Under the pieces are notes generated by a model. That model did no database searches. It saw only the letters and a list, made by a program, of their open reading frames with translations, and had not been told where the DNA came from. From Patescibacteria group bacterium (GTDB taxonomy: Bacteria; Patescibacteriota; Minisyncoccia; Phycocordibacterales; VMEP01): 32,020 nt of DNA. A program made the position numbers and the translations under genes. The stretch is taken from positions 1 to 32,020 of the forward strand of contig JBBTTL010000005.1 of NCBI GenBank assembly GCA_038064275.1. Direction: 5' to 3'. Shown here piece by piece: positions 3,768 to 19,978 of the stretch. How positions within the stretch are numbered: the stretch's first letter is position 1; each line of letters begins with the position of its first letter.

Positions 3768-4543
3768 CCAATAAGTATATTATTTATGCCGCGTTTTCTT
3801 TGCTTATCGCTGCATCGCTTTTTTTCGCCGCCAAGATTATCACTGAAATCAAATCATATAGATATATAGGGGGCGGAGTATTGGCAAGCAACGCCATTTC
3901 AGTCAGCGGAGAGGGTGAAGTGTTTGCGGTACCCGACATAGCCACGATAATTTTCTCGGCGGCAAGCCAAGGCAAGACCGTGGCCATGGCGCAGAAAGAA
4001 GCCAGCAAGAAAATTGATGCCGCTCTCGCGTTTTTGAAAAACTCCGGGATTTCCGACAAAGACATAAAAACGACAAACTACAGCGCCCATCCGCGCTATG
4101 AATACAATGAGGTGGTTTGTCTGTCTCTTAATTGTCCGCGTCCTGGCAAGCAAACTCTCGTCGGATATGACGTAATGCAGACTATTTCGGTGAAAGCAAG
4201 GGATACTGATAAGGTGGGCGCTATTCTTGAAGGCTTGGCCAAGGCGGGAATCACTGAAATATCGGGTCCAAATTTCTCAATTGATGACGAGGAAAAACTG
4301 AAAGCCGAAGCGAGGAAATACGCAATCGCCGATGCCAAGGAAAAAGCGGCCGCGCTTGCCGGCGACCTCGGGGTTTCTCTCGTGCGCATTATAAGTTTTT
4401 CCGAGGCGGGAAATTATCCGATTTATTACGCCAAAGCGCTTGAATCAGCCGGCGGAAACGGCGGGGATGTTCTGGCGCCCGAGATTCCGAAAGGGGAGAA
4501 TAAAATCAGCTCCAACGTAACCATTACTTATGAAATCAGGTAA
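3746..4543 (+). CDS. SIMPL/DUF541 family periplasmic protein
   Basis: 265 aa with an N-terminal TM anchor. GYDVMQTISVKARD and EARKYAIADAKEKA..ISSNVTITYEI resemble the SIMPL (26-kDa periplasmic antigen) family. Confidence 0.8.
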   Translation: MEKETLLTNKYIIYAAFSLLIAASLFFAAKIITEIKSYRYIGGGVLASNAISVSGEGEVFAVPDIATIIFSAASQGKTVAMAQKEASKKIDAALAFLKNSGISDKDIKTTNYSAHPRYEYNEVVCLSLNCPRPGKQTLVGYDVMQTISVKARDTDKVGAILEGLAKAGITEISGPNFSIDDEEKLKAEARKYAIADAKEKAAALAGDLGVSLVRIISFSEAGNYPIYYAKALESAGGNGGDVLAPEIPKGENKISSNVTITYEIR

Positions 4544-4551
4544 AAAACAAA

Positions 4552-4962
4552 ATGGGAAATCCGCTTGAAAATAGTTTTTTAGTGCAAGGGGAAGGAATGG
4601 AAGGAGTCGGGACCCCAAAAGAAAAAACAATCAACATAGAAGAAGAAATAGACGAGGCTATGCATAGATTGCAAGGTCTTTTGGATGAGGCGGTTACAAC
4701 ACTTGAAATGGTTTTTGAAAATAAGTTTATTGACGAGGGAGACAAAGAACGACTCTATGTTATTTTAGACAAAGCGGCAACGGAAGCGAACGATTTGATG
4801 AAAGATAAGAAAAGAGACGGCAATGAAATCCTGGAATTGTTGGCGGAAATATCCGAACGCGTTGATATTAATACCGGTATAAAAAATCAATTCAAAGATG
4901 GGAGCGAAAAAATAGAAACGTTTCTGGCCGGAGAAAAAAAAAGAAAGGAGGGAAAGAATTGA
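4552..4962 (+). CDS. hypothetical acidic, probably helical protein
   Basis: 136-aa ORF rich in E/D/K with no recognisable motif. An alternative start lies at 4597. Confidence 0.45.
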   Translation: MGNPLENSFLVQGEGMEGVGTPKEKTINIEEEIDEAMHRLQGLLDEAVTTLEMVFENKFIDEGDKERLYVILDKAATEANDLMKDKKRDGNEILELLAEISERVDINTGIKNQFKDGSEKIETFLAGEKKRKEGKN

Positions 4963-5066
4963 TTCCGAAGCTAGAGGACAGAGAGACGAGACGGTTGCCG
5001 GACCGCACCACCAAGAAGAGGGCGGCGGAGGACGGGCGGCTCATACATAAGAGAATTAGGGGATAA
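4959..5066 (+). CDS. possible 35-aa basic peptide (TTG start overlapping the upstream stop)
   Basis: AGGAGG at 4946-4951 sits 7 nt before TTG 4959. Translation LIPKLEDRETRRLPDRTTKKRAAEDGRLIHKRIRG. G+C-rich like the adjacent island. Too short to call firmly. Confidence 0.2.
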   Translation: MIPKLEDRETRRLPDRTTKKRAAEDGRLIHKRIRG

Positions 5067-5141
5067 TTTTTTTGGGACAGGAAATAGAGATTAAAAACGC
5101 CCAAGCCGCCGTGGACTAAGCGTTTTTCGCCGTGAGAAAAT

Positions 5142-5169
5142 TTGACAATTCACTGAAGAGGTGTATAGT
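5142..5169 (+). promoter_or_regulatory. sigma70-like promoter TTGACA-16-TATAGT
   Basis: -35 at 5142-5147 and -10 at 5164-5169, about 45 nt upstream of the TTG start at 5214. Confidence 0.5.
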
Positions 5170-5213
5170 GTTCATAGGATTTTTCACCTTCAACCAATAT
5201 TTGGAGAAAGACC

Positions 5214-5648
5214 TTGAATCTGAAAATAATTGTTTTTTTGCTGGCGTTACTGATTCCCTGGAGCGCATCCGTTGCTTGCGACACAAATCGCGCCGAATGG
5301 ATGCTGATTCACAACACCATCATCACGGGGCAATACCGCGACGTGTTACAGGAAGAAAAGGAATTGTTCGCAAAAACAAAGGAATGTTTCGCGGCGGCGG
5401 AGGGAGAAGAAACAGACAATGGTCACTGCAAAGCGTTCATGGGCGCCAGTATTGATGAAATCGGGCCCAAGAAGAAACAGCTCCTTCAGAAGTTTGAGAA
5501 AGAGGCGGAGGCCATTTGGCGCCTGGGTTGCGCGTCGCTATCCAAAATATCAGAGGAGGTGGAGTTAGCGATTGGGCGACTGAAAGAGTCGATTAAGGAT
5601 TTGGAAAAAACAAAGAGAAGGCTGGAAAGAAAGGAATTTCTAATATAA
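5214..5648 (+). CDS. hypothetical secreted protein or lipoprotein with 4 Cys
   Basis: TTG start with GGAG 7 nt upstream. Signal-peptide-like N-terminus MNLKIIVFLLALLIPWSASVAC. Has its own promoter and intrinsic terminator. Confidence 0.55.
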   Translation: MNLKIIVFLLALLIPWSASVACDTNRAEWMLIHNTIITGQYRDVLQEEKELFAKTKECFAAAEGEETDNGHCKAFMGASIDEIGPKKKQLLQKFEKEAEAIWRLGCASLSKISEEVELAIGRLKESIKDLEKTKRRLERKEFLI

Positions 5649-5660
5649 CCCAGCCCCCAC

Positions 5661-5690
5661 AAGCGCGGCACATGCCGCGCTTGATTTTTT
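5661..5690 (+). terminator. intrinsic terminator
   Basis: aagcgcggc-acat-gccgcgctt followed by gatttttt. Confidence 0.75.
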
Positions 5691-5709
5691 GTACCCTATT
5701 TACACGGGC

Positions 5710-5739
5710 TTGACAAACAGTCGCGTTTATGATTATAAT
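5710..5739 (+). promoter_or_regulatory. consensus sigma70 promoter TTGACA-18-TATAAT
   Basis: -35 at 5710-5715 and -10 at 5734-5739, which implies a 5' UTR of about 90 nt before the ATG at 5837. Confidence 0.6.
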
Positions 5740-5836
5740 ATAGGCAGAATTTTACGACTGTTTTTAGCACATTGAGAGAGAAGTTTTCTGAGGCGGGCGA
5801 TTTTTCCAACAACGTACGAACACACAGGAGGCTCCG

Positions 5837-7171
5837 ATGAGCAGAACAAAACAACACGGGAAAAACAAAGGGAAAGGAAAAAAAGGGGACCATGAGGGGC
5901 GGAAAAAACCGGCGGAGGATAAACCGAGGTATCGGAAACCGCCACGCGAGCGTGGTCCAAAACCGGACTACACGCCGAACGGCGTAGCTGTAGCGAAGGA
6001 GTTGATGTTCGTGTACAACACGAGCGCGCGGCAATTGCTCAACGGCACCATGGACAAGGAGAGGTATAAAATCGGCGACGCCGAGTTTGAGAAAGAAATG
6101 GTGCCGCCCTTCAGGGGCGCCCAAGAGAGTGATTTCCGTTGTGCCGTGAGATTCATCGGCGCGCCGGAAGGACACGAACTTCTTCTTTCTGGCGTGCAAC
6201 CGGGGACACACATTCTCGCCAGCACGCTTTCAAAGGAAGATTTCTTCTCCAGGGTGAAGAGCGTTGAGCTCCAAAGGTCGCTCGCCGCGCTTCACAAGTA
6301 CCTCCGAGGGCACTTGGCGGAAGCGAGCAAGGGGAAAGCAAAAGTCGCTAACCCCAAGCCCGTTGCCAACCACAAGGAAACGACCCCTCCTGTCGTATCA
6401 TCCGACCCGAAACTCATCTGGGACGGGAAGGAGGGGCTCGTGGAAATCGGGGGAATACGTTTCCGTGTTTCCACGGAGGAAGTGAAAGGGCACCCTTTCC
6501 GGGCAGCGCGAGTAGATTTTGCGCCGCAGGGAACGGAACTGGCCGACTTGAGCGGGGCAGACACGTATGTGCCGGTGTCAAGGCTTCACCGGCCGGAGTT
6601 TGTATCGCCCCTCCCAAAGGGAAGCAGGGGATGGGAGACACAAAAGCGCATCTGGAAGTTCCTCCGCGGCCAGTTCGCCAAGGCGGGAATTACCGGAGGG
6701 GCGGCGAAAGCCAAACCTGTTTCTGTTGTGGCAAAACCCAAGCCGAAAGCTAAGAATGTGGAAGACCCTTACAAGGGGTCAACCGATATCGGGCAACTCG
6801 TGTCCGGTTTCTATGGGTACTATGTGCTCGGGGAACATGGCGCGCGAGCACTCGTTCGCGTCAGAAGCCACATGAACAGGGAGAAAAGCAGAGAGCGTGT
6901 TGTCGTGGAGCTCGTCAAATGCGAAGCGGGAAATTTCCTCCGCGGGAAATGCGGGGCCAATACCCACATCCCGCACCCGTGGCTCAAGAAGGATCTTGAG
7001 CAGATAGAGATCAAGGATGGGCCCCGTGCTTCCGACATGACAATGCTGTATGTCTATCTGACGGGCGTCATTGACGTTTATCGGAAGGATGTGTATGCGC
7101 ATGTCGCCGCCACCAGAGGCAAAGGGAAACCCGTGGGTGGCATTCACCCAATGCCCGAAGCCATTCAATAA
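5837..7171 (+). CDS. orphan 444-aa basic protein with three internal repeats
   Basis: ATG preceded by AGGAGG (5826-5831), a consensus promoter upstream and a strong terminator downstream. High G+C. No family recognised. Confidence 0.7.
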   Translation: MSRTKQHGKNKGKGKKGDHEGRKKPAEDKPRYRKPPRERGPKPDYTPNGVAVAKELMFVYNTSARQLLNGTMDKERYKIGDAEFEKEMVPPFRGAQESDFRCAVRFIGAPEGHELLLSGVQPGTHILASTLSKEDFFSRVKSVELQRSLAALHKYLRGHLAEASKGKAKVANPKPVANHKETTPPVVSSDPKLIWDGKEGLVEIGGIRFRVSTEEVKGHPFRAARVDFAPQGTELADLSGADTYVPVSRLHRPEFVSPLPKGSRGWETQKRIWKFLRGQFAKAGITGGAAKAKPVSVVAKPKPKAKNVEDPYKGSTDIGQLVSGFYGYYVLGEHGARALVRVRSHMNREKSRERVVVELVKCEAGNFLRGKCGANTHIPHPWLKKDLEQIEIKDGPRASDMTMLYVYLTGVIDVYRKDVYAHVAATRGKGKPVGGIHPMPEAIQ

Positions 7172-7189
7172 CGCCACGCAATGTGGCAT

Positions 7190-7235
7190 AACCGCGCACG
7201 AACCCAGTTTGGTTCGTTGCGCGGTTTTCTTTTTG
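7190..7235 (+). terminator. intrinsic terminator of the 444-aa gene
   Basis: aaccgcgcacgaacc-cagttt-ggttcgttgcgcggtt followed by ttctttttg. Confidence 0.8.
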
Positions 7236-7250
7236 CCGGTTTTCTTCGCT

Positions 7251-7298
7251 TGACCCCGCAGTAGATCTGTCAGTAGGCAGATTCACTGCGGGGTTGAC
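7251..7298. other. nested imperfect hairpin
   Basis: accccgcagt..(atctg-tcagtagg-cagat)..actgcggggt. Confidence 0.4.
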
Positions 7299-7332
7299 TT
7301 CAAAAATGGACAAGTGTAGTATTCCATCAAAG

Positions 7333-7351
7333 CCCCGCGGGGTGTTTTTTT
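7333..7351 (+). terminator. short GC hairpin plus T7
   Basis: ccccgcgggg-tg-ttttttt. Confidence 0.55.
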
Positions 7352-7444
7352 AACCAAAATTTTTAACCGGCCTTTAGCGACTGGCGTTTAGGGAGAATTA
7401 GGTGAATTTGTCCTTTCTCTCTACGCTAATCGCTCAACACTAAT

Positions 7445-7627
7445 ATGAGCTTGATTGATTATTTACGCGAAACCAGAGGAGAATTGAAACACGTCAGCTG
7501 GCCTACCAGGCGGCAGACAATTGTCTTTACGCTGATTGTAATCGCTATCTCAATTATCGTTGCTTATTTATTGGGACTGCTTGATTTTTTGTTTCGTTTC
7601 GGACTGGAGAGGGTTTTGGTTAGGTAA
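7445..7627 (+). CDS. secE: preprotein translocase subunit SecE
   Basis: 60 aa. ELKHVSWPTRRQT followed by a single TM helix. Conserved position directly upstream of nusG. Confidence 0.85.
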   Translation: MSLIDYLRETRGELKHVSWPTRRQTIVFTLIVIAISIIVAYLLGLLDFLFRFGLERVLVR

Positions 7628-7645
7628 ACTAACTTTATACCAATA

Positions 7646-7681
7646 TACGAATGATTCAAATGATGCGAATGGTTACGAATA
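7646..7681 (+). repeat. four tandem about-9-nt ACGAAT-type units (secE-nusG spacer)
   Basis: tacgaatga ttcaaatga tgcgaatgg ttacgaata. Confidence 0.6.
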
Positions 7682-7714
7682 AAACAATGGATGAAAAAGT
7701 AATATATTTATTTC

Positions 7715-8257
7715 ATGAAGCAAGAAATACAAACTGAACGTAATTGGTACGCTATCCATACCTACGCCGGGTATGAAAACGCGGTTATGCGAAATTTGAA
7801 ACAGCGCATTGAATCTCTCGGCATGGAGGGAAAGATTTTTAACGTTGTCGTTCCGATTGAGAAGAAAATAAAAATCAAGGGCGGCAAGCGCGTGGAAGTG
7901 GAGGAGAAAATTTATCCCGGCTACGTGCTGGTTGATATGGTCGTTGACGACGATTCGTGGTATGTGGTACGAAACACTCCGCGCGTTACCGGATTTGTCG
8001 GCGCCGGCGTCAATCCCGTACCCCTCAACAAAAGCGAGGTGGATGTTCTTTTCAGCAGGATGAAAACAGACACCGCTCGTCACAATATTGACCTTGCCAT
8101 AGGCGAATCAGTTGTGGTTACAGACGGACCGTTTAAAGAACTTGAAGGGAAGATAAATGAGGTGGATGAAGAGCGAGGCAAAGTGAAAGTACTAGTTTCA
8201 ATGTTCGGCCGAGAGACGCCTGTTGAACTGGATTTTCTTCAGGTGAAAAAGATATAA
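7715..8257 (+). CDS. nusG: transcription termination/antitermination factor NusG
   Basis: 180 aa. [15 protein letters not shown] start and a C-terminal KOW ([18 protein letters not shown]). Confidence 0.95.
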
Positions 8258-8378
8258 AAGTGCGACACAAATATACTAATGCACGTCAAAGCAGGATTAC
8301 TATCAAACTCAAAGATATTTACAAGCTGGCGGTTATAAGTTAGGATTACTTATCAATTTTAGAAATAAGTATTTAAAA

Positions 8379-8407
8379 CCCATTCGTATCATTCGTTTTA
8401 ATTCGTA
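8379..8407 (-). repeat. three tandem ACGAAT-type units, inverted orientation (nusG-rplK spacer)
   Basis: ccattcgta tcattcgtt ttaattcgta (attcgt is the reverse complement of acgaat). Confidence 0.55.
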
Positions 8408-8424
8408 GATTGGCATCGAGAAAC

Positions 8425-8847
8425 ATGGCTAAGAAAATAACCAAAAAAATCAAATTACAGGTGCAGGCCGGCAAAGCCACTCCGGCGCCGCCATTGGGTC
8501 CCGCGCTCGGTCAGGCGGGCGTTAACATCGGCGACTTCGTCACTAAATTTAATGCCGCCACCAAGGATATGGTCGGCAATGTTGTCTCCGTAAAGGTTCG
8601 GGTCTATGAAGACCGAACTTTTGATTTTGTGGTAAAAACTCCGCCGGCATCGGGGCTCATTTTGAAAGCGGCCGGGGTGGAAAAAGGTTCCGGCAAGAAC
8701 ACCATTTCAAAGGCCGGGAAAATTTCCAAAGCCCAAGTGCGCGAAATCGCCGAGACAAAAATGAAGGATTTAACCGCCCATACCGTAGAGCAGGCCATGA
8801 AAATCATTGAGGGAAGCGCCCGAAGTATGGGGATAGAGGTGAAGTAG
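8425..8847 (+). CDS. rplK: 50S ribosomal protein L11
   Basis: [35 protein letters not shown] is a canonical L11 N-terminus. I prefer ATG 8425 over the TTG at 8410 given in the ORF track. Confidence 0.95.
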
Positions 8848-8848
8848 T

Positions 8849-8876
8849 AACTTACAACTTACAACTGACAACAACG
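8849..8876 (+). repeat. heptamer array directly after the rplK stop
   Basis: aacttac aacttac aactgac aacaacg. Confidence 0.6.
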
Positions 8877-8906
8877 TCAAAACCCCGCCTAGGCGGGGTT
8901 TTGACG
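8875..8906. terminator. 15-bp perfect hairpin after rplK
   Basis: cgtcaaaaccccgcc-ta-ggcggggttttgacg. Confidence 0.6.
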
Positions 8907-8941
8907 TTCGGGGGCTGACTTTTATTTTCTCGAAAATACAT

Positions 8942-8947
8942 TATAAT
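8942..8947 (+). promoter_or_regulatory. TATAAT 7 nt before the dcd ATG; no SD
   Basis: tataat-tcttgac-ATG. Confidence 0.45.
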
Positions 8948-8954
8948 TCTTGAC

Positions 8955-10070
8955 ATGACTTTGACTTTTTCGGGGCACGGCGCGTTTTCCTCGCAAGACA
9001 TTGAAACTCTTATACAGCAAGGGGCGATTATAAACGCAGAGAAAGAGCATATAAGCCCCGCCTCTCTTGACCTCACGATTTCCGACGAAGCATATCGCGT
9101 GGAGGAAATTTTCTTGCCGAAAACAGGGGAGACAGTACGCGACGTTCTTAAGTCTATAGAAGTATTTCCCCACGATTTTAGTAATCCATTGGAGAGGGAC
9201 GTAACCTACCTTTTTCTTTTAAACGAAAAAATTTCGTTGCCGGAAGATGTCTACGGATATTGCAATCCAAAATCCACGACAGGAAGAAACGATGTCCACG
9301 CGCGCGTGATTGCCGACGGGGTTTCGCGCTACGATGCCGTTACCCCAAAAGGATTCCGCGGAGAGCTGTGGGTCGCCGTTACCCCAAAATCATTTCCTAT
9401 TAAACTGGCGAAAGGCATGCCACTTAGCCAATTGCGCTTGTTTAATAAAGACACCCGCTTCACAGAAGGGGAATGTAAAGACGCGCTTGAAACATACGGG
9501 CTTCTGTGGGACCTAGAGGGGAGGAAATATTCTTATGAGGAAATTAAAATCCGCGACAACGATGGCTCCATCATTCTCACCCTTGACCTGTCGCAGGACA
9601 TTGCGGGATATGAGTGCCACGGGTCAAACAAAGTACTCGATTTTTCAAAAGGCGCGCAATCACATAATCCGGCGGGTTTCTTTGAACGCATCCGCATAGA
9701 CAGAAAAAGAATCCATCTCAAGAAAGGAAGTTTTTATGTTCTCTCCTCGTGCGAAGCCGTTCGCGTCCCGCCGGATCTTACCTGCGAGATGGCGCCGATG
9801 GACGAGCGAAGCGGCGAATTCCGTTCTCATTATGCGGGATTTATTGATCCTGGCTGGGGATGGGGGAAAAACGGAGAAGGGAAAGGGCGTCCGCTCACCC
9901 TTGAAGTGCGTCCGTTTGAAGACATCGTCATCCGTCACGGTCAGCCGATTGGAAAAATAAAATTTGAGCGGGTCACGCAGATTCCGAACATGTTGTATGA
10001 CACAAAGGCGAGCAATTATCTTGCGCAGACGGGGCCGAAACTTTCAAAGCATTTCAAGGAACTTGCATAA
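8955..10070 (+). CDS. dcd: 2'-deoxycytidine 5'-triphosphate deaminase, long (about 370 aa) DCD form
   Basis: 371 aa. PASLDLT, GYCNPKSTTGRNDV and HYAGFIDPGWG resemble the dCTP deaminase/dUTPase-fold family. Sits next to dut. Confidence 0.72.
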   Translation: MTLTFSGHGAFSSQDIETLIQQGAIINAEKEHISPASLDLTISDEAYRVEEIFLPKTGETVRDVLKSIEVFPHDFSNPLERDVTYLFLLNEKISLPEDVYGYCNPKSTTGRNDVHARVIADGVSRYDAVTPKGFRGELWVAVTPKSFPIKLAKGMPLSQLRLFNKDTRFTEGECKDALETYGLLWDLEGRKYSYEEIKIRDNDGSIILTLDLSQDIAGYECHGSNKVLDFSKGAQSHNPAGFFERIRIDRKRIHLKKGSFYVLSSCEAVRVPPDLTCEMAPMDERSGEFRSHYAGFIDPGWGWGKNGEGKGRPLTLEVRPFEDIVIRHGQPIGKIKFERVTQIPNMLYDTKASNYLAQTGPKLSKHFKELA

Positions 10071-10577: not shown

Positions 10578-11006
10578 ATGTTAAAAATTAGATTTAAAAA
10601 ACTCTCGGCAGGGGCGAAAGCACCGTCTTACTCCCACCCAGGAGATGCGGGAATGGATTTGTACGCGAACGAAAGCGTTGCTATAAAGAAAGGGGAAGCG
10701 ACGCGCATCCCGACAGGTATCGCCATTGAAATCTCCGACGGGTATGTCGGCTTGGTGTGGGATAAAAGCAGTTTGTCCACAAACCACGGACTTAAGACTC
10801 TCGGCGGTGTTATAGATGCCGGTTATCGCGGAGAAATAATTGTTGGACTTATTAACCTTGGCAAGGAAGATTATATTGTAGAGAAGCATCAGAAAATCGC
10901 TCAATTGCTTATCCAAAAAATTGAACGCGCGGAACTTGAAGGGACGGATGAATTAAGCGAAAGCAAGCGGGGGATGGGAGGGTTCGGAAGCACCGGCAAA
11001 AAATAA
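10578..11006 (+). CDS. dut: dUTP diphosphatase
   Basis: 142 aa. AGMDLY, GVIDAGYRGE and C-terminal RGMGGFGSTG motifs. Confidence 0.95.
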   Translation: MLKIRFKKLSAGAKAPSYSHPGDAGMDLYANESVAIKKGEATRIPTGIAIEISDGYVGLVWDKSSLSTNHGLKTLGGVIDAGYRGEIIVGLINLGKEDYIVEKHQKIAQLLIQKIERAELEGTDELSESKRGMGGFGSTGKK

Positions 11007-12250: not shown

Positions 12251-12286
12251 CACCATTCGCACATTCGTACGAATGTGCGAATGGTG
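12251..12286. repeat. perfect 36-bp palindrome (copy 1 of 3) abutting the ArsR-gene -10 box
   Basis: caccattcgcacattcgt|acgaatgtgcgaatggtg; the two halves are exact reverse complements. Confidence 0.9.
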
Positions 12287-12299: not shown

Positions 12300-12566
12300 A
12301 TGAAAGCAAATGAAATGGAATTTAATTTGAAAGCGTTAGCCAACCGACGCAGACTTGCAATTATCACCTTTGTAAAAATTAAAAGAGAAGTAACGGTTGG
12401 GGAAATAGCAGAAGAGATAAAACTCTCGTTCCGCTCAACGTCAAAACATCTCGGGGTCCTCGCCGCGGCTGGTATTTTGGAAAAAGAACAGAGAAGCGCG
12501 CAAGTTTACTATTCTTTAGGCGGGAATCTTTCAGAGCCCGCTCGGCGTATTGTCGCCCTTCTTTAA
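12300..12566 (+). CDS. ArsR/SmtB family winged-helix transcriptional regulator
   Basis: 88 aa. LKALANRRRLAIITFV..EVTVGEIAEEIKLSFRSTSKHLGVLAAAGILEKEQRSAQVYYSL is the ArsR HTH pattern. No obvious metal-ligand Cys motif. Confidence 0.85.
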   Translation: MKANEMEFNLKALANRRRLAIITFVKIKREVTVGEIAEEIKLSFRSTSKHLGVLAAAGILEKEQRSAQVYYSLGGNLSEPARRIVALL

Positions 12567-12620: not shown

Positions 12621-12655
12621 ATTTACAATTCGCACATTCGTACGAATGAGCGAAT
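12621..12655. repeat. palindromic repeat, copy 2
   Basis: atttacaattcgcacattcgtacgaatgagcgaat. Identical over 35 nt to copy 3, with one arm mismatch relative to a perfect palindrome. Confidence 0.9.
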
Positions 12656-12714: not shown

Positions 12715-13209
12715 ATGTCGAGCAAGAAATGCCGCGTAAAACCGACCGATCTCCAGTGGGACTGCGCGATGCGGGTCCTGAAAAAGGTCCGCCCGCAGCA
12801 GACGCTCCACCTCTGGAACGACCCCGCCATCACCTGCGATATGTTCTTTCGCTTAAGCCGGGAGATTCGCCAGATCACATTAACACCTCAACCAGTCTGT
12901 GGCGATAAAGAGGTACCGGCGACCATAGAACAACGGATTGATGGAACTGGCTTGATTTATTATGTGACCGAAATCAAAGAGGTCTTGCCGTTTGAGGAAC
13001 AAGTGCTTTGTTTTCTCCATGAGCTCGCCCACATCGCCGTTTGGAAAGGAGAGTTTATACTTCCTTCGACGTGGAAAGAAGACGACGTCGAGTGGTTCGT
13101 GGAGCTCCTCGCCGTGCAGTACCTTGAGACCTGCGATTACTATGTATACTCGAGATATCTCCAGTATTTCCCAATCGCGTATACTAAGCATCTGCTCGCC
13201 ACCCTGTGA
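12715..13209 (+). CDS. hypothetical protein with HExxH motif (putative small zinc metallopeptidase-like)
   Basis: 164 aa. AAGGAGG at 12703-12709 lies 5 nt before the ATG. FLHELAHIAVW with acidic residues downstream. Terminator overlaps the stop. Higher G+C than its neighbours. Confidence 0.55.
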   Translation: MSSKKCRVKPTDLQWDCAMRVLKKVRPQQTLHLWNDPAITCDMFFRLSREIRQITLTPQPVCGDKEVPATIEQRIDGTGLIYYVTEIKEVLPFEEQVLCFLHELAHIAVWKGEFILPSTWKEDDVEWFVELLAVQYLETCDYYVYSRYLQYFPIAYTKHLLATL

Positions 13210-13448: not shown

Positions 13449-13483
13449 ATTTACAATTCGCACATTCGTACGAATGAGCGAAT
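13449..13483. repeat. palindromic repeat, copy 3
   Basis: 35/35 identity with 12621-12655. Confidence 0.9.
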
Positions 13484-19378: not shown

Positions 19379-19978
19379 ATGAATATTTGTATATTCGGCG
19401 ATAGCATAACATGGGGAGCGGTTGACCACGATAAGGGAGGATGGGCTGAAAGATTGAAAACTTATTTTATGGAGCACCAAGAAGGCGTAAATTTATACAA
19501 TCTCGGCGTAGATGATAACACATCCGACGACCTGTTGAAACGGTTTGATGTAGAAGCGAGCGCGCGGGAAGCCGCCCTTATAGTTTTTGCAATCGGGACA
19601 AACGATTCGCAATATATAAAAACCACAGACAACCCCAGAGTAAGTCTGGAAAAATTTGAAAATAATATTTTTGAATTGGTAAAACAAGCGAAAAAGTTTA
19701 CGAATAAGATATTGTTTGTTTCTCCAACAAGAGTAGACGAATCAAAAACAATGCCAATACCATGGGATACAGTAAGGTATTATGACAATGAAAATATTAA
19801 AAAGTATAGTGATTTACTAAAAAAGTTTTGTAATGAAGAAAGATTAACTTATGTAGATATTCAAAATTTATTGGATACTGAAGATTTATACGATGGTTTG
19901 CATCCTTTCCCTCAAGGTCATCAGAAAATTTTTGAGATAATGAAAGAAGCCGTTAAAAAACTTCAAACTAATTCCTAA
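19379..19978 (+). CDS. SGNH/GDSL family hydrolase
   Basis: 199 aa. ICIFGDSITWG (block I Ser), GTNDS (block III), DGLHP (block V Asp/His). Confidence 0.85.
   Translation: MNICIFGDSITWGAVDHDKGGWAERLKTYFMEHQEGVNLYNLGVDDNTSDDLLKRFDVEASAREAALIVFAIGTNDSQYIKTTDNPRVSLEKFENNIFELVKQAKKFTNKILFVSPTRVDESKTMPIPWDTVRYYDNENIKKYSDLLKKFCNEERLTYVDIQNLLDTEDLYDGLHPFPQGHQKIFEIMKEAVKKLQTNS

What the first reader, a model, noticed from the sequence alone, without database searches (positions are those of the whole stretch)
4959..7360. G+C-rich island whose genes use canonical promoter/SD/terminator signals, unlike the surrounding backbone
Seen in sequence: from about 4960 to 7360, rough hand counts on several 60-nt rows give about 60% G+C, against roughly 35-52% on most backbone rows. 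Codons shift to AAG/GAG/CCG/CGC. Each gene here is a self-contained unit. One runs from promoter TTGACA-16-TATAGT (5142-5169), through GGAG and the TTG start at 5214, to the terminator at 5661-5690. The other runs from consensus TTGACA-18-TATAAT (5710-5739), through a leader of about 90 nt, AGGAGG and the ATG at 5837, to the terminator at 7190-7235. A possible 35-aa basic ORF with AGGAGG lies at 4959-5066. Most backbone genes in the window lack any SD and have a -10 box right at the ATG. None of the island products matches a family I recognise. Inference: this is horizontally acquired DNA from a higher-G+C, SD-using donor, inserted just upstream of secE-nusG. That is a locus where tRNA genes, which are common integration targets, often sit in other bacteria. 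No integrase or clear direct repeats were found.
Basis: partly seen in the sequence, partly recalled or inferred. Interest (0 to 1): 0.7.

Follow-up and report, generated by a model that had tools for sequence, protein, structure and literature searches.

The report
Hypervariable GC-rich resident gene beside secE
The "foreign island" is mainly one old, clade-specific gene of groundwater Paceibacterota bacteria: it encodes a very basic repeat protein of unknown family, always sits just before secE-nusG, is G+C-rich in every relative, and differs strongly between otherwise near-identical strains.

Summary
The sequence features are real, but the G+C-rich part is one gene, not 2.4 kb. CDS 5837-7171 has GC 0.564 against 0.45 elsewhere (z about 5). 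The promoters, Shine-Dalgarno (SD) sites and terminators are where stated, and 24 of 28 window genes lack an SD.

The 444-aa gene is not a recent import. Homologues lie directly upstream of secE-nusG-rplK in about nine distinct related loci, down to 28-35% identity. Each has the same TTGACA promoter, and each is 4-16 GC points richer than its flanks.

The protein has pI 9.9, a Lys/Gly-rich disordered tail with a GPKPDYTP motif, and three copies of a confidently modelled ~105-aa domain. Nothing significant matches in Pfam, NCBIfam, PHROGs, PADLOC, PDB or BFVD. Only 60 representatives exist among 1.84 billion proteins.

It is hypervariable and mosaic: NusG is 99% identical in strain L002, but this protein only 73%.

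The 144-aa gene (5111-5708 cassette) is a true strain-specific insertion, but it is not GC-rich. The 35-aa ORF is a frameshift artefact.

My best guess is an abundant nucleic-acid-binding protein. The cause of the codon bias is unresolved.

The parts
4552..4962 (+). orf136, a hypothetical acidic coiled-coil protein. It is found only in the closest relatives. Here it is truncated by an A9 run (4932-4940), which is A8 in L001 and L020.
4959..5066 (+). It is not a gene. In L020 and L010 this stretch is the 3' end of orf136, read in another frame.
5111..5708 (+). Strain-specific cassette (GC 0.467). It is absent from L001, L002, L010 and L020. L001, L002 and L020 carry about 100 nt with a 40-nt palindrome at this spot instead.
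5142..5169 (+). Promoter-like site TTGACA-16-TATAGT of orf144.
5214..5648 (+). orf144. TTG start with GGAG 7 nt upstream. It has a signal peptide with a lipobox-like ...SASVAC and a coiled-coil C-terminus. It is an ORFan: the only other copies are 99% identical sequences on three short Hainich groundwater contigs.
5660..5690 (+). Intrinsic terminator of orf144 (10-bp stem, 8 of them GC, then T6).
5710..5739 (+). Consensus promoter TTGACA-18-TATAAT of the 444-aa gene. TTGACA is invariant in all 10 aligned loci. A TG sits 1-2 nt upstream of the -10 hexamer in most.
5746..5836 (+). Inferred 5' leader of about 90 nt. It is predicted to be unstructured (z +1.0). It holds the recurring motif TAGCACATTGA (5764-5775) and AGGAGG (5826-5831).
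5837..7171 (+). 444-aa basic protein (pI 9.9), GC 0.564, GC3 0.647. Disordered Lys/Gly-rich N-tail (aa 1-58, with GPKPDYTP). Three homologous domains at about aa 60-165, 186-285 and 312-416, joined by K/P/A-rich linkers.
6392..6712 (+). Repeat 2, the best-conserved domain. The AF2 model of it alone has pLDDT 91.7 and pTM 0.83. Layout: short helix, three-strand meander, short fourth strand, long C-terminal helix carrying the QxRIW motif.
7173..7187 (+). Hairpin GCCAC-GCAAU-GUGGC, 2 nt after the stop codon. CCACGCAATGTGG is identical in 7 lineages whose proteins are only 28-73% identical. L012 keeps the GCAAU loop on a different stem.
7190..7235 (+). Intrinsic terminator (15-bp stem with one bulge, then a U-run).
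7253..7294 (+). Hairpin of about 42 nt bracketed by TTGAC...TTGAC. It is absent in L003, L008 and L006 and longer in L029. It looks like a MITE-like insertion next to the -35 element.
7294..7352 (+). Promoter-like TTGACT-17-TAGTAT, followed about 10 nt later by a GC hairpin plus U7, upstream of secE. Conserved in L001, L003, L006, L008, L010 and L029.
7445..8847 (+). secE, nusG and rplK, the conserved downstream neighbours that anchor the synteny.

Best explanation
The G+C-rich stretch is a resident, clade-specific gene of Paceibacterota (CPR/Parcubacteria). It is not imported DNA. It is a stand-alone, single-gene expression unit with these parts, in order:
- the terminator of the upstream gene;
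- a consensus sigma-70 promoter;
- an unstructured leader of about 60-100 nt;
- a strong SD site;
- the coding sequence;
- a conserved GCAAU-loop hairpin;
- a strong terminator.
This unit has kept its place in front of secE-nusG-rplK throughout the clade. In a more distant branch it sits after infB-rbfA.

The product is a strongly basic protein. It has a disordered Lys/Gly-rich tail carrying a conserved GPKPDYTP motif, and two or three copies of a previously undescribed ~105-aa alpha/beta domain.

Inferred function: an abundant protein that binds nucleic acid, either nucleoid- or RNA-associated. It would be made in large amounts from this cassette, in a genome that otherwise initiates translation mostly without SD sites.

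Shown: the gene is the fastest-evolving one in the neighbourhood, and its alleles are mosaics exchanged by homologous recombination.

The high G+C is a property of the family. About half comes from a Gly/Ala/Pro/Arg-rich composition. The other half comes from a codon dialect shared by all orthologues (C-ending two-fold codons, AAG over AAA). Its cause is inferred only. Candidates are recombination-associated GC-biased gene conversion or a shared allele pool, selection against slippery A-runs in Lys-rich segments, and some translational selection.
For: Synteny:
- Homologues lie immediately 5' of secE-nusG-rplK in about nine distinct related loci.
- Distant members lie after infB-rbfA.

Family-wide GC excess, gene versus flank:
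- window 0.564 / 0.452
- L001 0.576 / 0.446
- L003 0.485 / 0.432
- L006 0.544 / 0.467
- L008 0.522 / 0.435
- L010 0.558 / 0.437
- L012 0.498 / 0.362
- L014 0.505 / 0.467
- L015 0.496 / 0.393
- L029 0.550 / 0.394

Signals:
- The promoter, leader, SD and terminator recur in all loci.
- The leader is predicted unstructured and the terminator is strong.

Codon usage:
- C/(C+T) at two-fold NNY codons is 0.56-0.69 in the gene, against about 0.25-0.40 in the backgrounds.
- RSCU of orthologues correlates with each other (mean r 0.50). Correlation with the own genome ranges from -0.22 to 0.44.

Protein:
- pI is 9.9, and nearly all 69 family members have pI 9.2-10.3. The GPKP(D/N)(Y/F) motif occurs in 20 of them.
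- Three repeats are supported by hhalign (E 7e-5 to 4.5e-3) and by AF2.
- The weak top fold hits all belong to the beta4-alpha single-strand-binding fold class: PURA, SsgB and PC4-like proteins.

Hypervariability:
- Window versus L002: SecE 98%, NusG 99.4%, RplK 100%, this protein 72.6%.
- L029: NusG 89%, this protein 28-30%.
- DNA identity across the CDS runs in blocks from 40% to 100%.
- Different protein blocks have different nearest alleles.
- dN/dS is 0.15-0.34, against 0.01-0.04 for nusG.
Against: - There are no expression data. High expression is inferred from the signals only.
- The codon dialect is not shared with the ribosomal-protein genes at hand (rplK in five lineages, rpsF, rplS). 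The correlation is r -0.03 to 0.09, and their GC3 is 0.47-0.50 against 0.63. Simple translational selection is therefore not enough.
- The fold matches are not significant. The best Foldseek E-value is 0.04 for the full-length model and 0.38 for the single domain, with TM-scores of 0.31 or less to PURA.
- No family or solved-structure sequence hit was found. Nucleic-acid binding rests on charge, fold topology and gene neighbourhood.
- Mosaic hypervariability between strains is unusual for a housekeeping nucleoid or RNA-binding protein. It is more typical of proteins in conflict with phages or hosts.
Confidence: 0.6

Rival explanations
1. One reading: 4959-7360 is a genomic island recently acquired from a higher-G+C, SD-using donor and inserted upstream of secE-nusG.
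For: - The composition and codon usage of 5837-7171 are atypical.
- It carries canonical SD, promoter and terminator signals in an otherwise SD-poor genome.
- The orf144 cassette (5111-5708) is present in some strains and absent in others.
Against: - The same gene sits at the same locus, with the same GC excess, in all relatives down to 28-35% identity.
- All 60 representatives found look like members of this one small family. Every context examined is a CPR-like information-processing neighbourhood.
- There is no integrase, tRNA or flanking repeat.
- orf144 is not G+C-rich (0.469).
- The 35-aa ORF is an artefact.
Confidence: 0.05
2. The gene belongs to an allele pool that circulates by homologous recombination among related Paceibacterota lineages. 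The conserved leader, 3' hairpin and flanks serve as anchors for recombination. Its G+C-rich codon dialect reflects that shared pool and/or GC-biased gene conversion at a recombination hotspot. It does not reflect expression level.
For: - The alleles are mosaic.
- Divergence is decoupled from the flanks. L010 has SIMPL 87% but this protein 54%. L029 has NusG 89% but this protein 28-30%. L003 has NusG 81% but this protein 59%.
- Orthologues share a codon dialect that differs from each host genome and from the ribosomal-protein genes.
- The UTR elements are identical across lineages while the CDS diverges.
- Assemblies fragment at this locus, giving short contigs.
Against: - The codon shift is not a uniform G+C increase. 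In the window CGC, TCG and CAG drop and TAC is unchanged.
- Four-fold-site preferences differ between lineages: GGG in the window and L003, GGC/GGT in L006, L012 and L015.
- For L003 versus L008, pS of this gene (0.61) is close to that of nusG (0.49). In that pair, fast in-place evolution is enough to explain the divergence.
- No formal recombination test was run.
Confidence: 0.3
3. The protein is not a housekeeping nucleic-acid binder. It is a conflict protein under diversifying selection, for example one targeted by or acting against phages, or one delivered to the host cell of these episymbionts by a non-classical route.
For: - Divergence between strains is extreme, with modular shuffling of the repeats.
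- dN/dS is 10-30 times that of nusG.
- The adjacent intergenic spot collects strain-specific insertions.
Against: - There is no signal peptide or transmembrane segment (sequence; the AF2 model shows a disordered basic tail).
- No PADLOC or PHROG match was found.
- dN/dS stays well below 1.
- The fixed position among transcription and translation genes and the uniform pI above 9 argue for a conserved polyanion-binding role.
Confidence: 0.15
4. The protein is a ribosome-associated factor that compensates for the missing ribosomal protein L1 in this L1-less Parcubacteria group.
For: - rplK is not followed by rplA here or in any relative.
- The OD1-L1 group is reported to lack rpL1 (PMC5220378).
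- The gene lies beside rplK or rbfA-infB and is basic.
Against: - Ribosomal components are conserved, whereas this protein is hypervariable.
- It shows no similarity to L1.
- The family has only 60 representatives, far fewer than the OD1-L1 radiation would need.
- Absence of rplA from the whole genome was not tested.
Confidence: 0.04

Closest known systems
PUR-alpha / PC4 / Whirly / SsgB class (beta4-alpha single-stranded nucleic-acid-binding folds)
   Same: - Each repeat is predicted as an antiparallel beta-meander with a short fourth strand, followed by a long C-terminal helix.
- Like PURA, there are three repeats behind a Gly-rich disordered N-terminus.
- PURA chains take 8 of the top 10 hits for the full-length model. 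SsgB and PC4-like proteins also appear among the single-domain hits, and a PC4/p15-like phage protein among the viral-library hits.
   Different: - The matches are not significant (E 0.04-1.5, TM-scores of 0.38 or less).
- No member of the family hits the Pfam PUR, Whirly, PC4 or SsgA models.
- The repeats are longer (about 105 aa), with a 15-residue loop and an extra N-terminal turn.
- Each repeat is modelled as a self-contained domain, not as an interlocked pair.
Basic, low-complexity-tailed nucleoid proteins (mycobacterial HupB/Hlp tails, chlamydial Hc1, histone H1-like proteins). This comparison rests on my general knowledge.
   Same: - Very basic, with Lys/Ala/Pro/Gly-rich disordered tails and linkers.
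- Expected to be abundant.
- Tails of this kind evolve quickly.
   Different: - The folded domains are unrelated to HU or H1.
- No DNA-binding test exists.
- Strain-level mosaicism is not a known trait of those proteins.
Genomic islands / horizontally acquired cassettes
   Same: - Atypical composition and self-contained expression signals.
- The neighbouring orf144 cassette is present in some strains and absent in others.
   Different: - The G+C-rich gene is syntenic in all relatives.
- It has no mobility genes, tRNA or flanking repeats.
- Horizontal movement here is allele replacement by homologous recombination, not insertion.
Hypervariable mosaic loci such as antigenic or contingency genes. 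This comparison rests on my general knowledge. A CPR example of a hypervariable gene is reported in PMC6851277.
   Same: - A locus in a conserved frame whose alleles are shuffled in blocks and break assemblies.
   Different: - There are no tandem nucleotide repeats, no silent donor copies in the window and no signal peptide.
- The Gracilibacteria case is a 9-mer repeat locus, which is a different mechanism.

Membership tests
Genomic island (recent horizontal acquisition) | Atypical base composition or codon usage relative to the host genome | tested here: met
   Met for 5837-7171 (GC 0.564 against 0.453, z 5.1). Not met for orf144 (0.469).
Genomic island (recent horizontal acquisition) | Sporadic presence: absent from the same locus in close relatives | tested here: not met
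   The 444-aa gene is present at the same locus in all relatives examined. Only the 5111-5708 cassette is sporadic.
Genomic island (recent horizontal acquisition) | Integrase or other mobility genes, a tRNA or similar attachment site, flanking direct repeats | tested here: not met
   No tRNA in the window. There are only short, chance-level repeats. No mobility domains were found.
Genomic island (recent horizontal acquisition) | Closest homologues in a different, compositionally matching lineage | tested here: not met
   All 60 representatives form one small family. The contexts seen are CPR-like, and the only named source is Candidatus Paceibacterota.
PUR / Whirly / PC4-like ssDNA/RNA-binding domains | Sequence match to the family profiles | tested here: not met
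   No such Pfam hit at E up to 1 in any of 62 members. No PDB sequence hit.
PUR / Whirly / PC4-like ssDNA/RNA-binding domains | Four-strand antiparallel sheet plus C-terminal helix, superposable on solved members | tested here: inconclusive
   The topology is compatible. PURA, SsgB and PC4-like proteins are among the top hits, but with E 0.04-1.5 and TM-scores of 0.38 or less.
PUR / Whirly / PC4-like ssDNA/RNA-binding domains | Binds single-stranded DNA or RNA | not testable with these tools
   Only indirect support: pI 9.2-10.3 across the family and a conserved F-R-V motif on a beta strand.
Highly expressed gene with translational codon selection | Codon usage shared with ribosomal-protein genes of the same genome | tested here: not met
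   Correlation with pooled rplK, rpsF and rplS is r -0.03 to 0.09. The sample is small, about 1000 codons.
Highly expressed gene with translational codon selection | Strong promoter, strong ribosome-binding site, unstructured leader, efficient terminator, C-ending NNY codons | tested here: met
Highly expressed gene with translational codon selection | High transcript or protein abundance | not testable with these tools
Anti-phage defence systems | Match to a known defence protein model | tested here: not met
   No PADLOC hit at E up to 1.
Known structured RNA families (leader, 3' UTR) | Rfam covariance-model match | tested here: not met
   Only one sub-threshold chance hit, inside the CDS.

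The most novel reading that the evidence does not exclude
A previously undescribed, Paceibacterota-restricted protein family. It is built from a new ~105-aa nucleic-acid-binding-like domain in two or three copies behind a Lys-rich tail with a GPKPDYTP docking motif. It is expressed from a fixed, high-output cassette next to secE-nusG. The cassette's conserved RNA elements are a leader motif and a GCAAU-loop hairpin directly after the stop codon. These frame a coding sequence that is swapped in blocks between lineages. The locus would then be a trans-species allele pool, kept G+C-rich inside A+T-rich genomes by recombination. The conserved UTR elements would serve both regulation, possibly autoregulation by the product, and recombination anchoring.
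Probability: 0.3. Interest if true: 0.7.

Novelty: new variant of a known kind. Interest (0 to 1): 0.55.

Why it matters
CPR/Patescibacteria make up a large share of bacterial diversity, and most of their lineage-specific genes are unannotated. This gene shows several features together:
- It is probably among the most strongly expressed genes of its genome.
- It has no recognisable family or fold.
- It keeps a fixed place among core transcription and translation genes.
- It is the most variable gene in its neighbourhood.

That combination marks it as a candidate for a major, clade-specific cell component, or for a conflict interface with phages or hosts.

The case is also a warning about method. 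A composition and signal anomaly that looks like a textbook island can be a stable, family-wide property of a resident gene. The real strain-specific insertion next to it has ordinary composition.

Finally, the locus offers a natural test of whether recombination or expression drives local G+C enrichment in A+T-rich, mostly leaderless genomes.

Tried and rejected
- Family scans. Pfam, NCBIfam, PHROGs and PADLOC scans of the 444-, 144-, 136- and 35-aa products gave nothing significant. A Pfam scan of all 62 family members found no recurrent family.
- Sequence search of the PDB. A repeat-2 profile gave only spurious weak hits.
- Fold searches. Foldseek against PDB (full-length model and single domain) and against BFVD gave no hit at E of 0.001 or below.
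- Rfam on 4400-8500 gave no real hit.
With the narrow alignment it found only one GTDB genome.
- 5' UTR to 3' UTR base pairing. It was suggested by CACATTG/CAATGTG here and by an 11-bp match in L006. It was rejected as a general feature: duplex energies are not better than shuffles in any of 9 loci.
- Translational selection as the sole cause of the codon bias is weakened by the lack of correlation with the ribosomal-protein genes.
- Covariation in the 3' hairpin and terminator. Pairing is kept in 90% of cells, but the sequences are too conserved to give significant covariation.
- Metagenome scan with the 3' motif. 31 of 33 hits were chance matches in unrelated high-G+C contigs. Only L025 and L029 were true relatives.
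- Cluster look-up for names gave none.
- Literature searches found no description of this family.

Full report
**1. Observation**

The window averages 45.6% G+C. A 500-nt profile rises above 0.53 only between about 5750 and 7250, peaking at 0.596.

Composition by feature:
- CDS 5837-7171 has GC 0.564 and GC3 0.647.
- ORF 5214-5648 has GC 0.469.
- The intergenic parts have GC 0.40-0.50.

Against all 1335-nt windows that do not overlap the gene (mean 0.453, sd 0.022, maximum 0.515), the CDS lies at z = 5.1. I computed the G+C expected from its amino acids under the window's own codon usage. By that measure the excess splits into +0.057 from amino-acid composition (Gly, Ala, Pro and Arg-rich) and +0.048 from synonymous choice.

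- TTGACA-16-TATAGT at 5142-5169 and TTGACA-18-TATAAT at 5710-5739. These are the two best promoter-like sites in 5.5 kb.
- GGAG before TTG 5214, and AGGAGG at 5826-5831 before ATG 5837.
- A terminator at 5660-5683 plus T-run.
- A hairpin plus terminator at 7173-7226 followed by a U-run.

The claim about the backbone also holds. 24 of 28 genes have no SD-like motif, and at least nine have a -10 hexamer 6-8 nt upstream of the ATG, as expected for leaderless mRNAs.

The 35-aa ORF is an artefact. A9 at 4932-4940 is A8 in L001 and L020. In L020 and L010 the upstream ORF runs on through this stretch in a different frame.

**2. The G+C-rich gene is resident, not imported**

A search of 5.8 billion proteins found 12 relatives, none of them named. 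An exhaustive profile search of 1.84 billion representatives found only 60. They come in two-repeat forms (about 270-320 aa) and three-repeat forms (about 440-550 aa).

Contexts:
- In L001 and L002 the homologue lies in the order SIMPL, orf136, gene, secE, nusG, rplK.
- In L003/4/5 and L008/9 the upstream genes differ, but secE-nusG-rplK follows.
- L006 is a Candidatus Paceibacterota MAG with a homologue of 34% identity.
- The P0013 contig shows the order SIMPL, gene, secE, nusG, rplK.
- L025 and L029 were found through the 3' UTR motif. They have the same layout, with a 540-aa homologue only 28-30% identical.
- L010 and L014 conserve the upstream flank and the downstream signals, but their contigs end before secE.
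- Still more distant members (P0035, P0039) follow infB-rbfA.

In every locus the gene is richer in G+C than its flanks, by 4 to 16 points. Examples are L012 at 0.498 against 0.362 and L029 at 0.550 against 0.394. Every locus has TTGACA, about 17-18 nt, then a -10 hexamer, and TTGACA is invariant in 10 aligned loci. Every locus also has a leader, an AGGAGG-like SD and a hairpin terminator.

There is no tRNA, no mobility gene and no flanking repeat above chance.

**3. The protein**

- It is 444 aa with pI 9.9.
- The AF2 model of the full chain has pLDDT 67. It shows three folded units, at about residues 60-165, 186-285 and 312-416.
- These are separated by disordered K/P/A-rich linkers and preceded by a disordered Lys/Gly-rich tail, residues 1-58.
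- The three units are homologous to one another (hhalign E 7e-5, 1.3e-3 and 4.5e-3).
- Repeat 2 alone, modelled with a 50-sequence alignment, gives pLDDT 91.7 and pTM 0.83. Its layout is a short helix, a three-strand meander, a loop, a short fourth strand and a long C-terminal helix carrying QxRIW.
- Foldseek finds nothing significant in PDB or BFVD.
- The weak top hits are PURA repeats I-II (E 0.04 for the full chain, TM 0.31 for the domain), SsgB and PC4-like proteins. These all have beta4-alpha folds that bind single-stranded nucleic acid. This is a lead, not a classification.
- No Pfam, NCBIfam, PHROG, PADLOC or PDB-sequence match was found.
- Across the family, pI is 9.2-10.3 in almost all members. 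The motif GPKP(D/N)(Y/F)(T/A)P recurs in the N-terminal tail, even in the most distant members.

**4. Hypervariability**

| Comparison with the window | Flanking proteins (% identity) | This protein (% identity) |
|---|---|---|
| L002 | SecE 98, NusG 99.4, RplK 100 | 72.6 |
| L010 | SIMPL 87 | 54 |
| L003 | NusG 81 | 58.6 |
| L029 | NusG 89 | 28-30 |

- Flanking DNA is 96-98% identical between the window and L001 or L020. Identity within the CDS swings between 40% and 100% in 60-nt blocks.
- At the protein level, the window's repeat 1 is closest to P0002 and P0003 (87-93%).
- Its repeat 2 is closest to P0001 and P0005 (97-100%), and only 50-73% identical to P0002 and P0003.
- P0001 and P0005 are identical for about 270 residues and then drop to 67-80%.
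- As the table shows, divergence is decoupled from the flanks.
- dN/dS is 0.15-0.34, against 0.01-0.04 for nusG. In the clean pair L003/L008, nonsynonymous divergence (pN) is 0.209 against 0.007, at similar synonymous divergence.

I read this as block-wise homologous exchange among alleles, on top of fast protein evolution. No formal recombination test was run.

**5. Why it is G+C-rich**

- The synonymous bias is a dialect of this gene family. C-ending two-fold NNY codons make up 0.56-0.69, against about 0.25-0.40 in the backgrounds. AAG is preferred over AAA, and CTC, ATC and TTC are favoured.
- RSCU vectors of the six orthologues correlate with one another (r 0.36-0.61, mean 0.50). Correlation with their own genomes is poor (-0.22 to 0.44).
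- The dialect is not shared with the ribosomal-protein genes at hand (rplK from five lineages, rpsF, rplS). The correlation is r -0.03 to 0.09, and their GC3 is 0.47-0.50 against 0.63.
- Classical translational selection is therefore at best part of the answer.
- Synonymous sites are saturated between the distant lineages. Retention from an ancient donor therefore cannot explain it either.

The remaining candidates are all inferred:
- recombination-linked GC-biased conversion, or a shared allele pool;
- avoidance of slippery A-runs in Lys-rich segments;
- an unknown constraint at the RNA or DNA level.

**6. Conserved non-coding elements**

- Two nucleotides after the stop codon lies the hairpin GCCAC-GCAAU-GUGGC. 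CCACGCAATGTGG is unique in the window.
- It is identical in seven lineages whose proteins are only 28-73% identical.
- L008 has a compensatory A-U outer pair. L012 shows the same GCAAU loop on a different stem.
- A strong terminator follows.
- The leader carries a recurring motif (G)TAG(C/T)AC(A/C)TTGA, seen in the window, L003, L008, L010, L015, L014 and L029. It is otherwise predicted to be unstructured.
- Rfam has no match.

These elements could be regulatory sites. Autoregulation by the product is a testable guess.

**7. The neighbours**

- Segment 5111-5708 holds orf144 with its own promoter and terminator. It is missing from L001, L002, L010 and L020.
- L001, L002 and L020 carry about 100 nt with a 40-nt palindrome at that spot. 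L010 has almost nothing there.
- orf144 is a predicted lipoprotein-like ORFan. Its only relatives are 99% identical copies on three short Hainich groundwater contigs.
- It is a real strain-specific insertion, but its G+C is ordinary.

**8. Verdict**

The anomaly is real, but it belongs to one gene. The island interpretation fails for that gene and holds only for the small orf144 cassette.

What is there is an undescribed, clade-restricted, hypervariable basic repeat protein, expressed from a conserved stand-alone cassette next to secE-nusG. The most likely function is abundant nucleic-acid binding. This rests on charge, fold topology and gene neighbourhood, and I hold it with moderate confidence. 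A conflict-related role cannot be excluded.

Noticed in passing
window 19379-19978: The GDSL-lipase gene is the lowest-G+C gene in the window (GC 0.348, GC3 0.31). It lies between ileS and recO, which are directly adjacent in L004 and L008.
   Followed up: partly
window 12255-12282, 12628-12655, 13456-13483: A 28-nt perfect palindrome, ATTCGCACATTCGTACGAATGTGCGAAT, occurs three times (0 expected by chance). The copies lie upstream of an ArsR-like HTH gene (12300-12566), of orf164 and of argS. It may be an operator or a REP-like element.
   Followed up: partly
window 12715-13209: orf164 is the only other gene in the window with a full AGGAGG SD and a high GC3 (0.64). It has an HExxH motif (HELAH) but no Pfam or PADLOC hit. 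It is conserved in L001.
   Followed up: partly
window 8410-10070 and all related loci: rplK is followed by dcd (or thyA), not by rplA-rplJ-rplL. This fits the OD1-L1 group of Parcubacteria, which is reported to lack ribosomal protein L1 (PMC5220378). Absence of rplA from the whole genome was not checked.
   Followed up: partly
window 7294-7352: A promoter-like site TTGACT-17-TAGTAT is followed within about 10 nt by a GC hairpin plus U7, about 90 nt before secE. The arrangement is conserved in L001, L003, L006, L008, L010 and L029. It may be an attenuator or a 5' stabiliser for secE-nusG.
   Followed up: partly
window 7253-7294: A hairpin of about 42 nt is bracketed by TTGAC on both sides. It is absent in L003, L008 and L006 and longer in L029. 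It looks like a small MITE-like insertion that regenerates the -35 element.
   Followed up: partly
L001 ~9790-9830, L002 ~9540-9580, L020 ~505-545: A 40-nt perfect palindrome, CCCATAGGTTAGACCTATGTACATAGGTCTAACCTATGGG, sits where the window has the orf144 cassette. The intergenic spot upstream of the promoter therefore collects different insertions in different strains.
   Followed up: no
window 4932-4940: A homopolymer A9 (A8 in L001 and L020) truncates orf136 in the window. It could be a real frameshift, a phase variation or an assembly error.
   Followed up: partly
L006 ~9960-9975 and ~10949-10962: There is 11-bp perfect complementarity between the 5' leader (AGCAATTTCCT) and the 3' UTR (AGGAAATTGCT) of the homologue in L006. 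It is not a general feature of the family: duplex energies are not better than shuffles.
   Followed up: yes
L001 and L002 (ERZ1286166 contigs): Many genes in these two contigs (folD, ZIP, glyA, argS and the homologue itself) are split by frameshifts. This suggests an error-prone long-read assembly, so their protein lengths should not be trusted.
   Followed up: no
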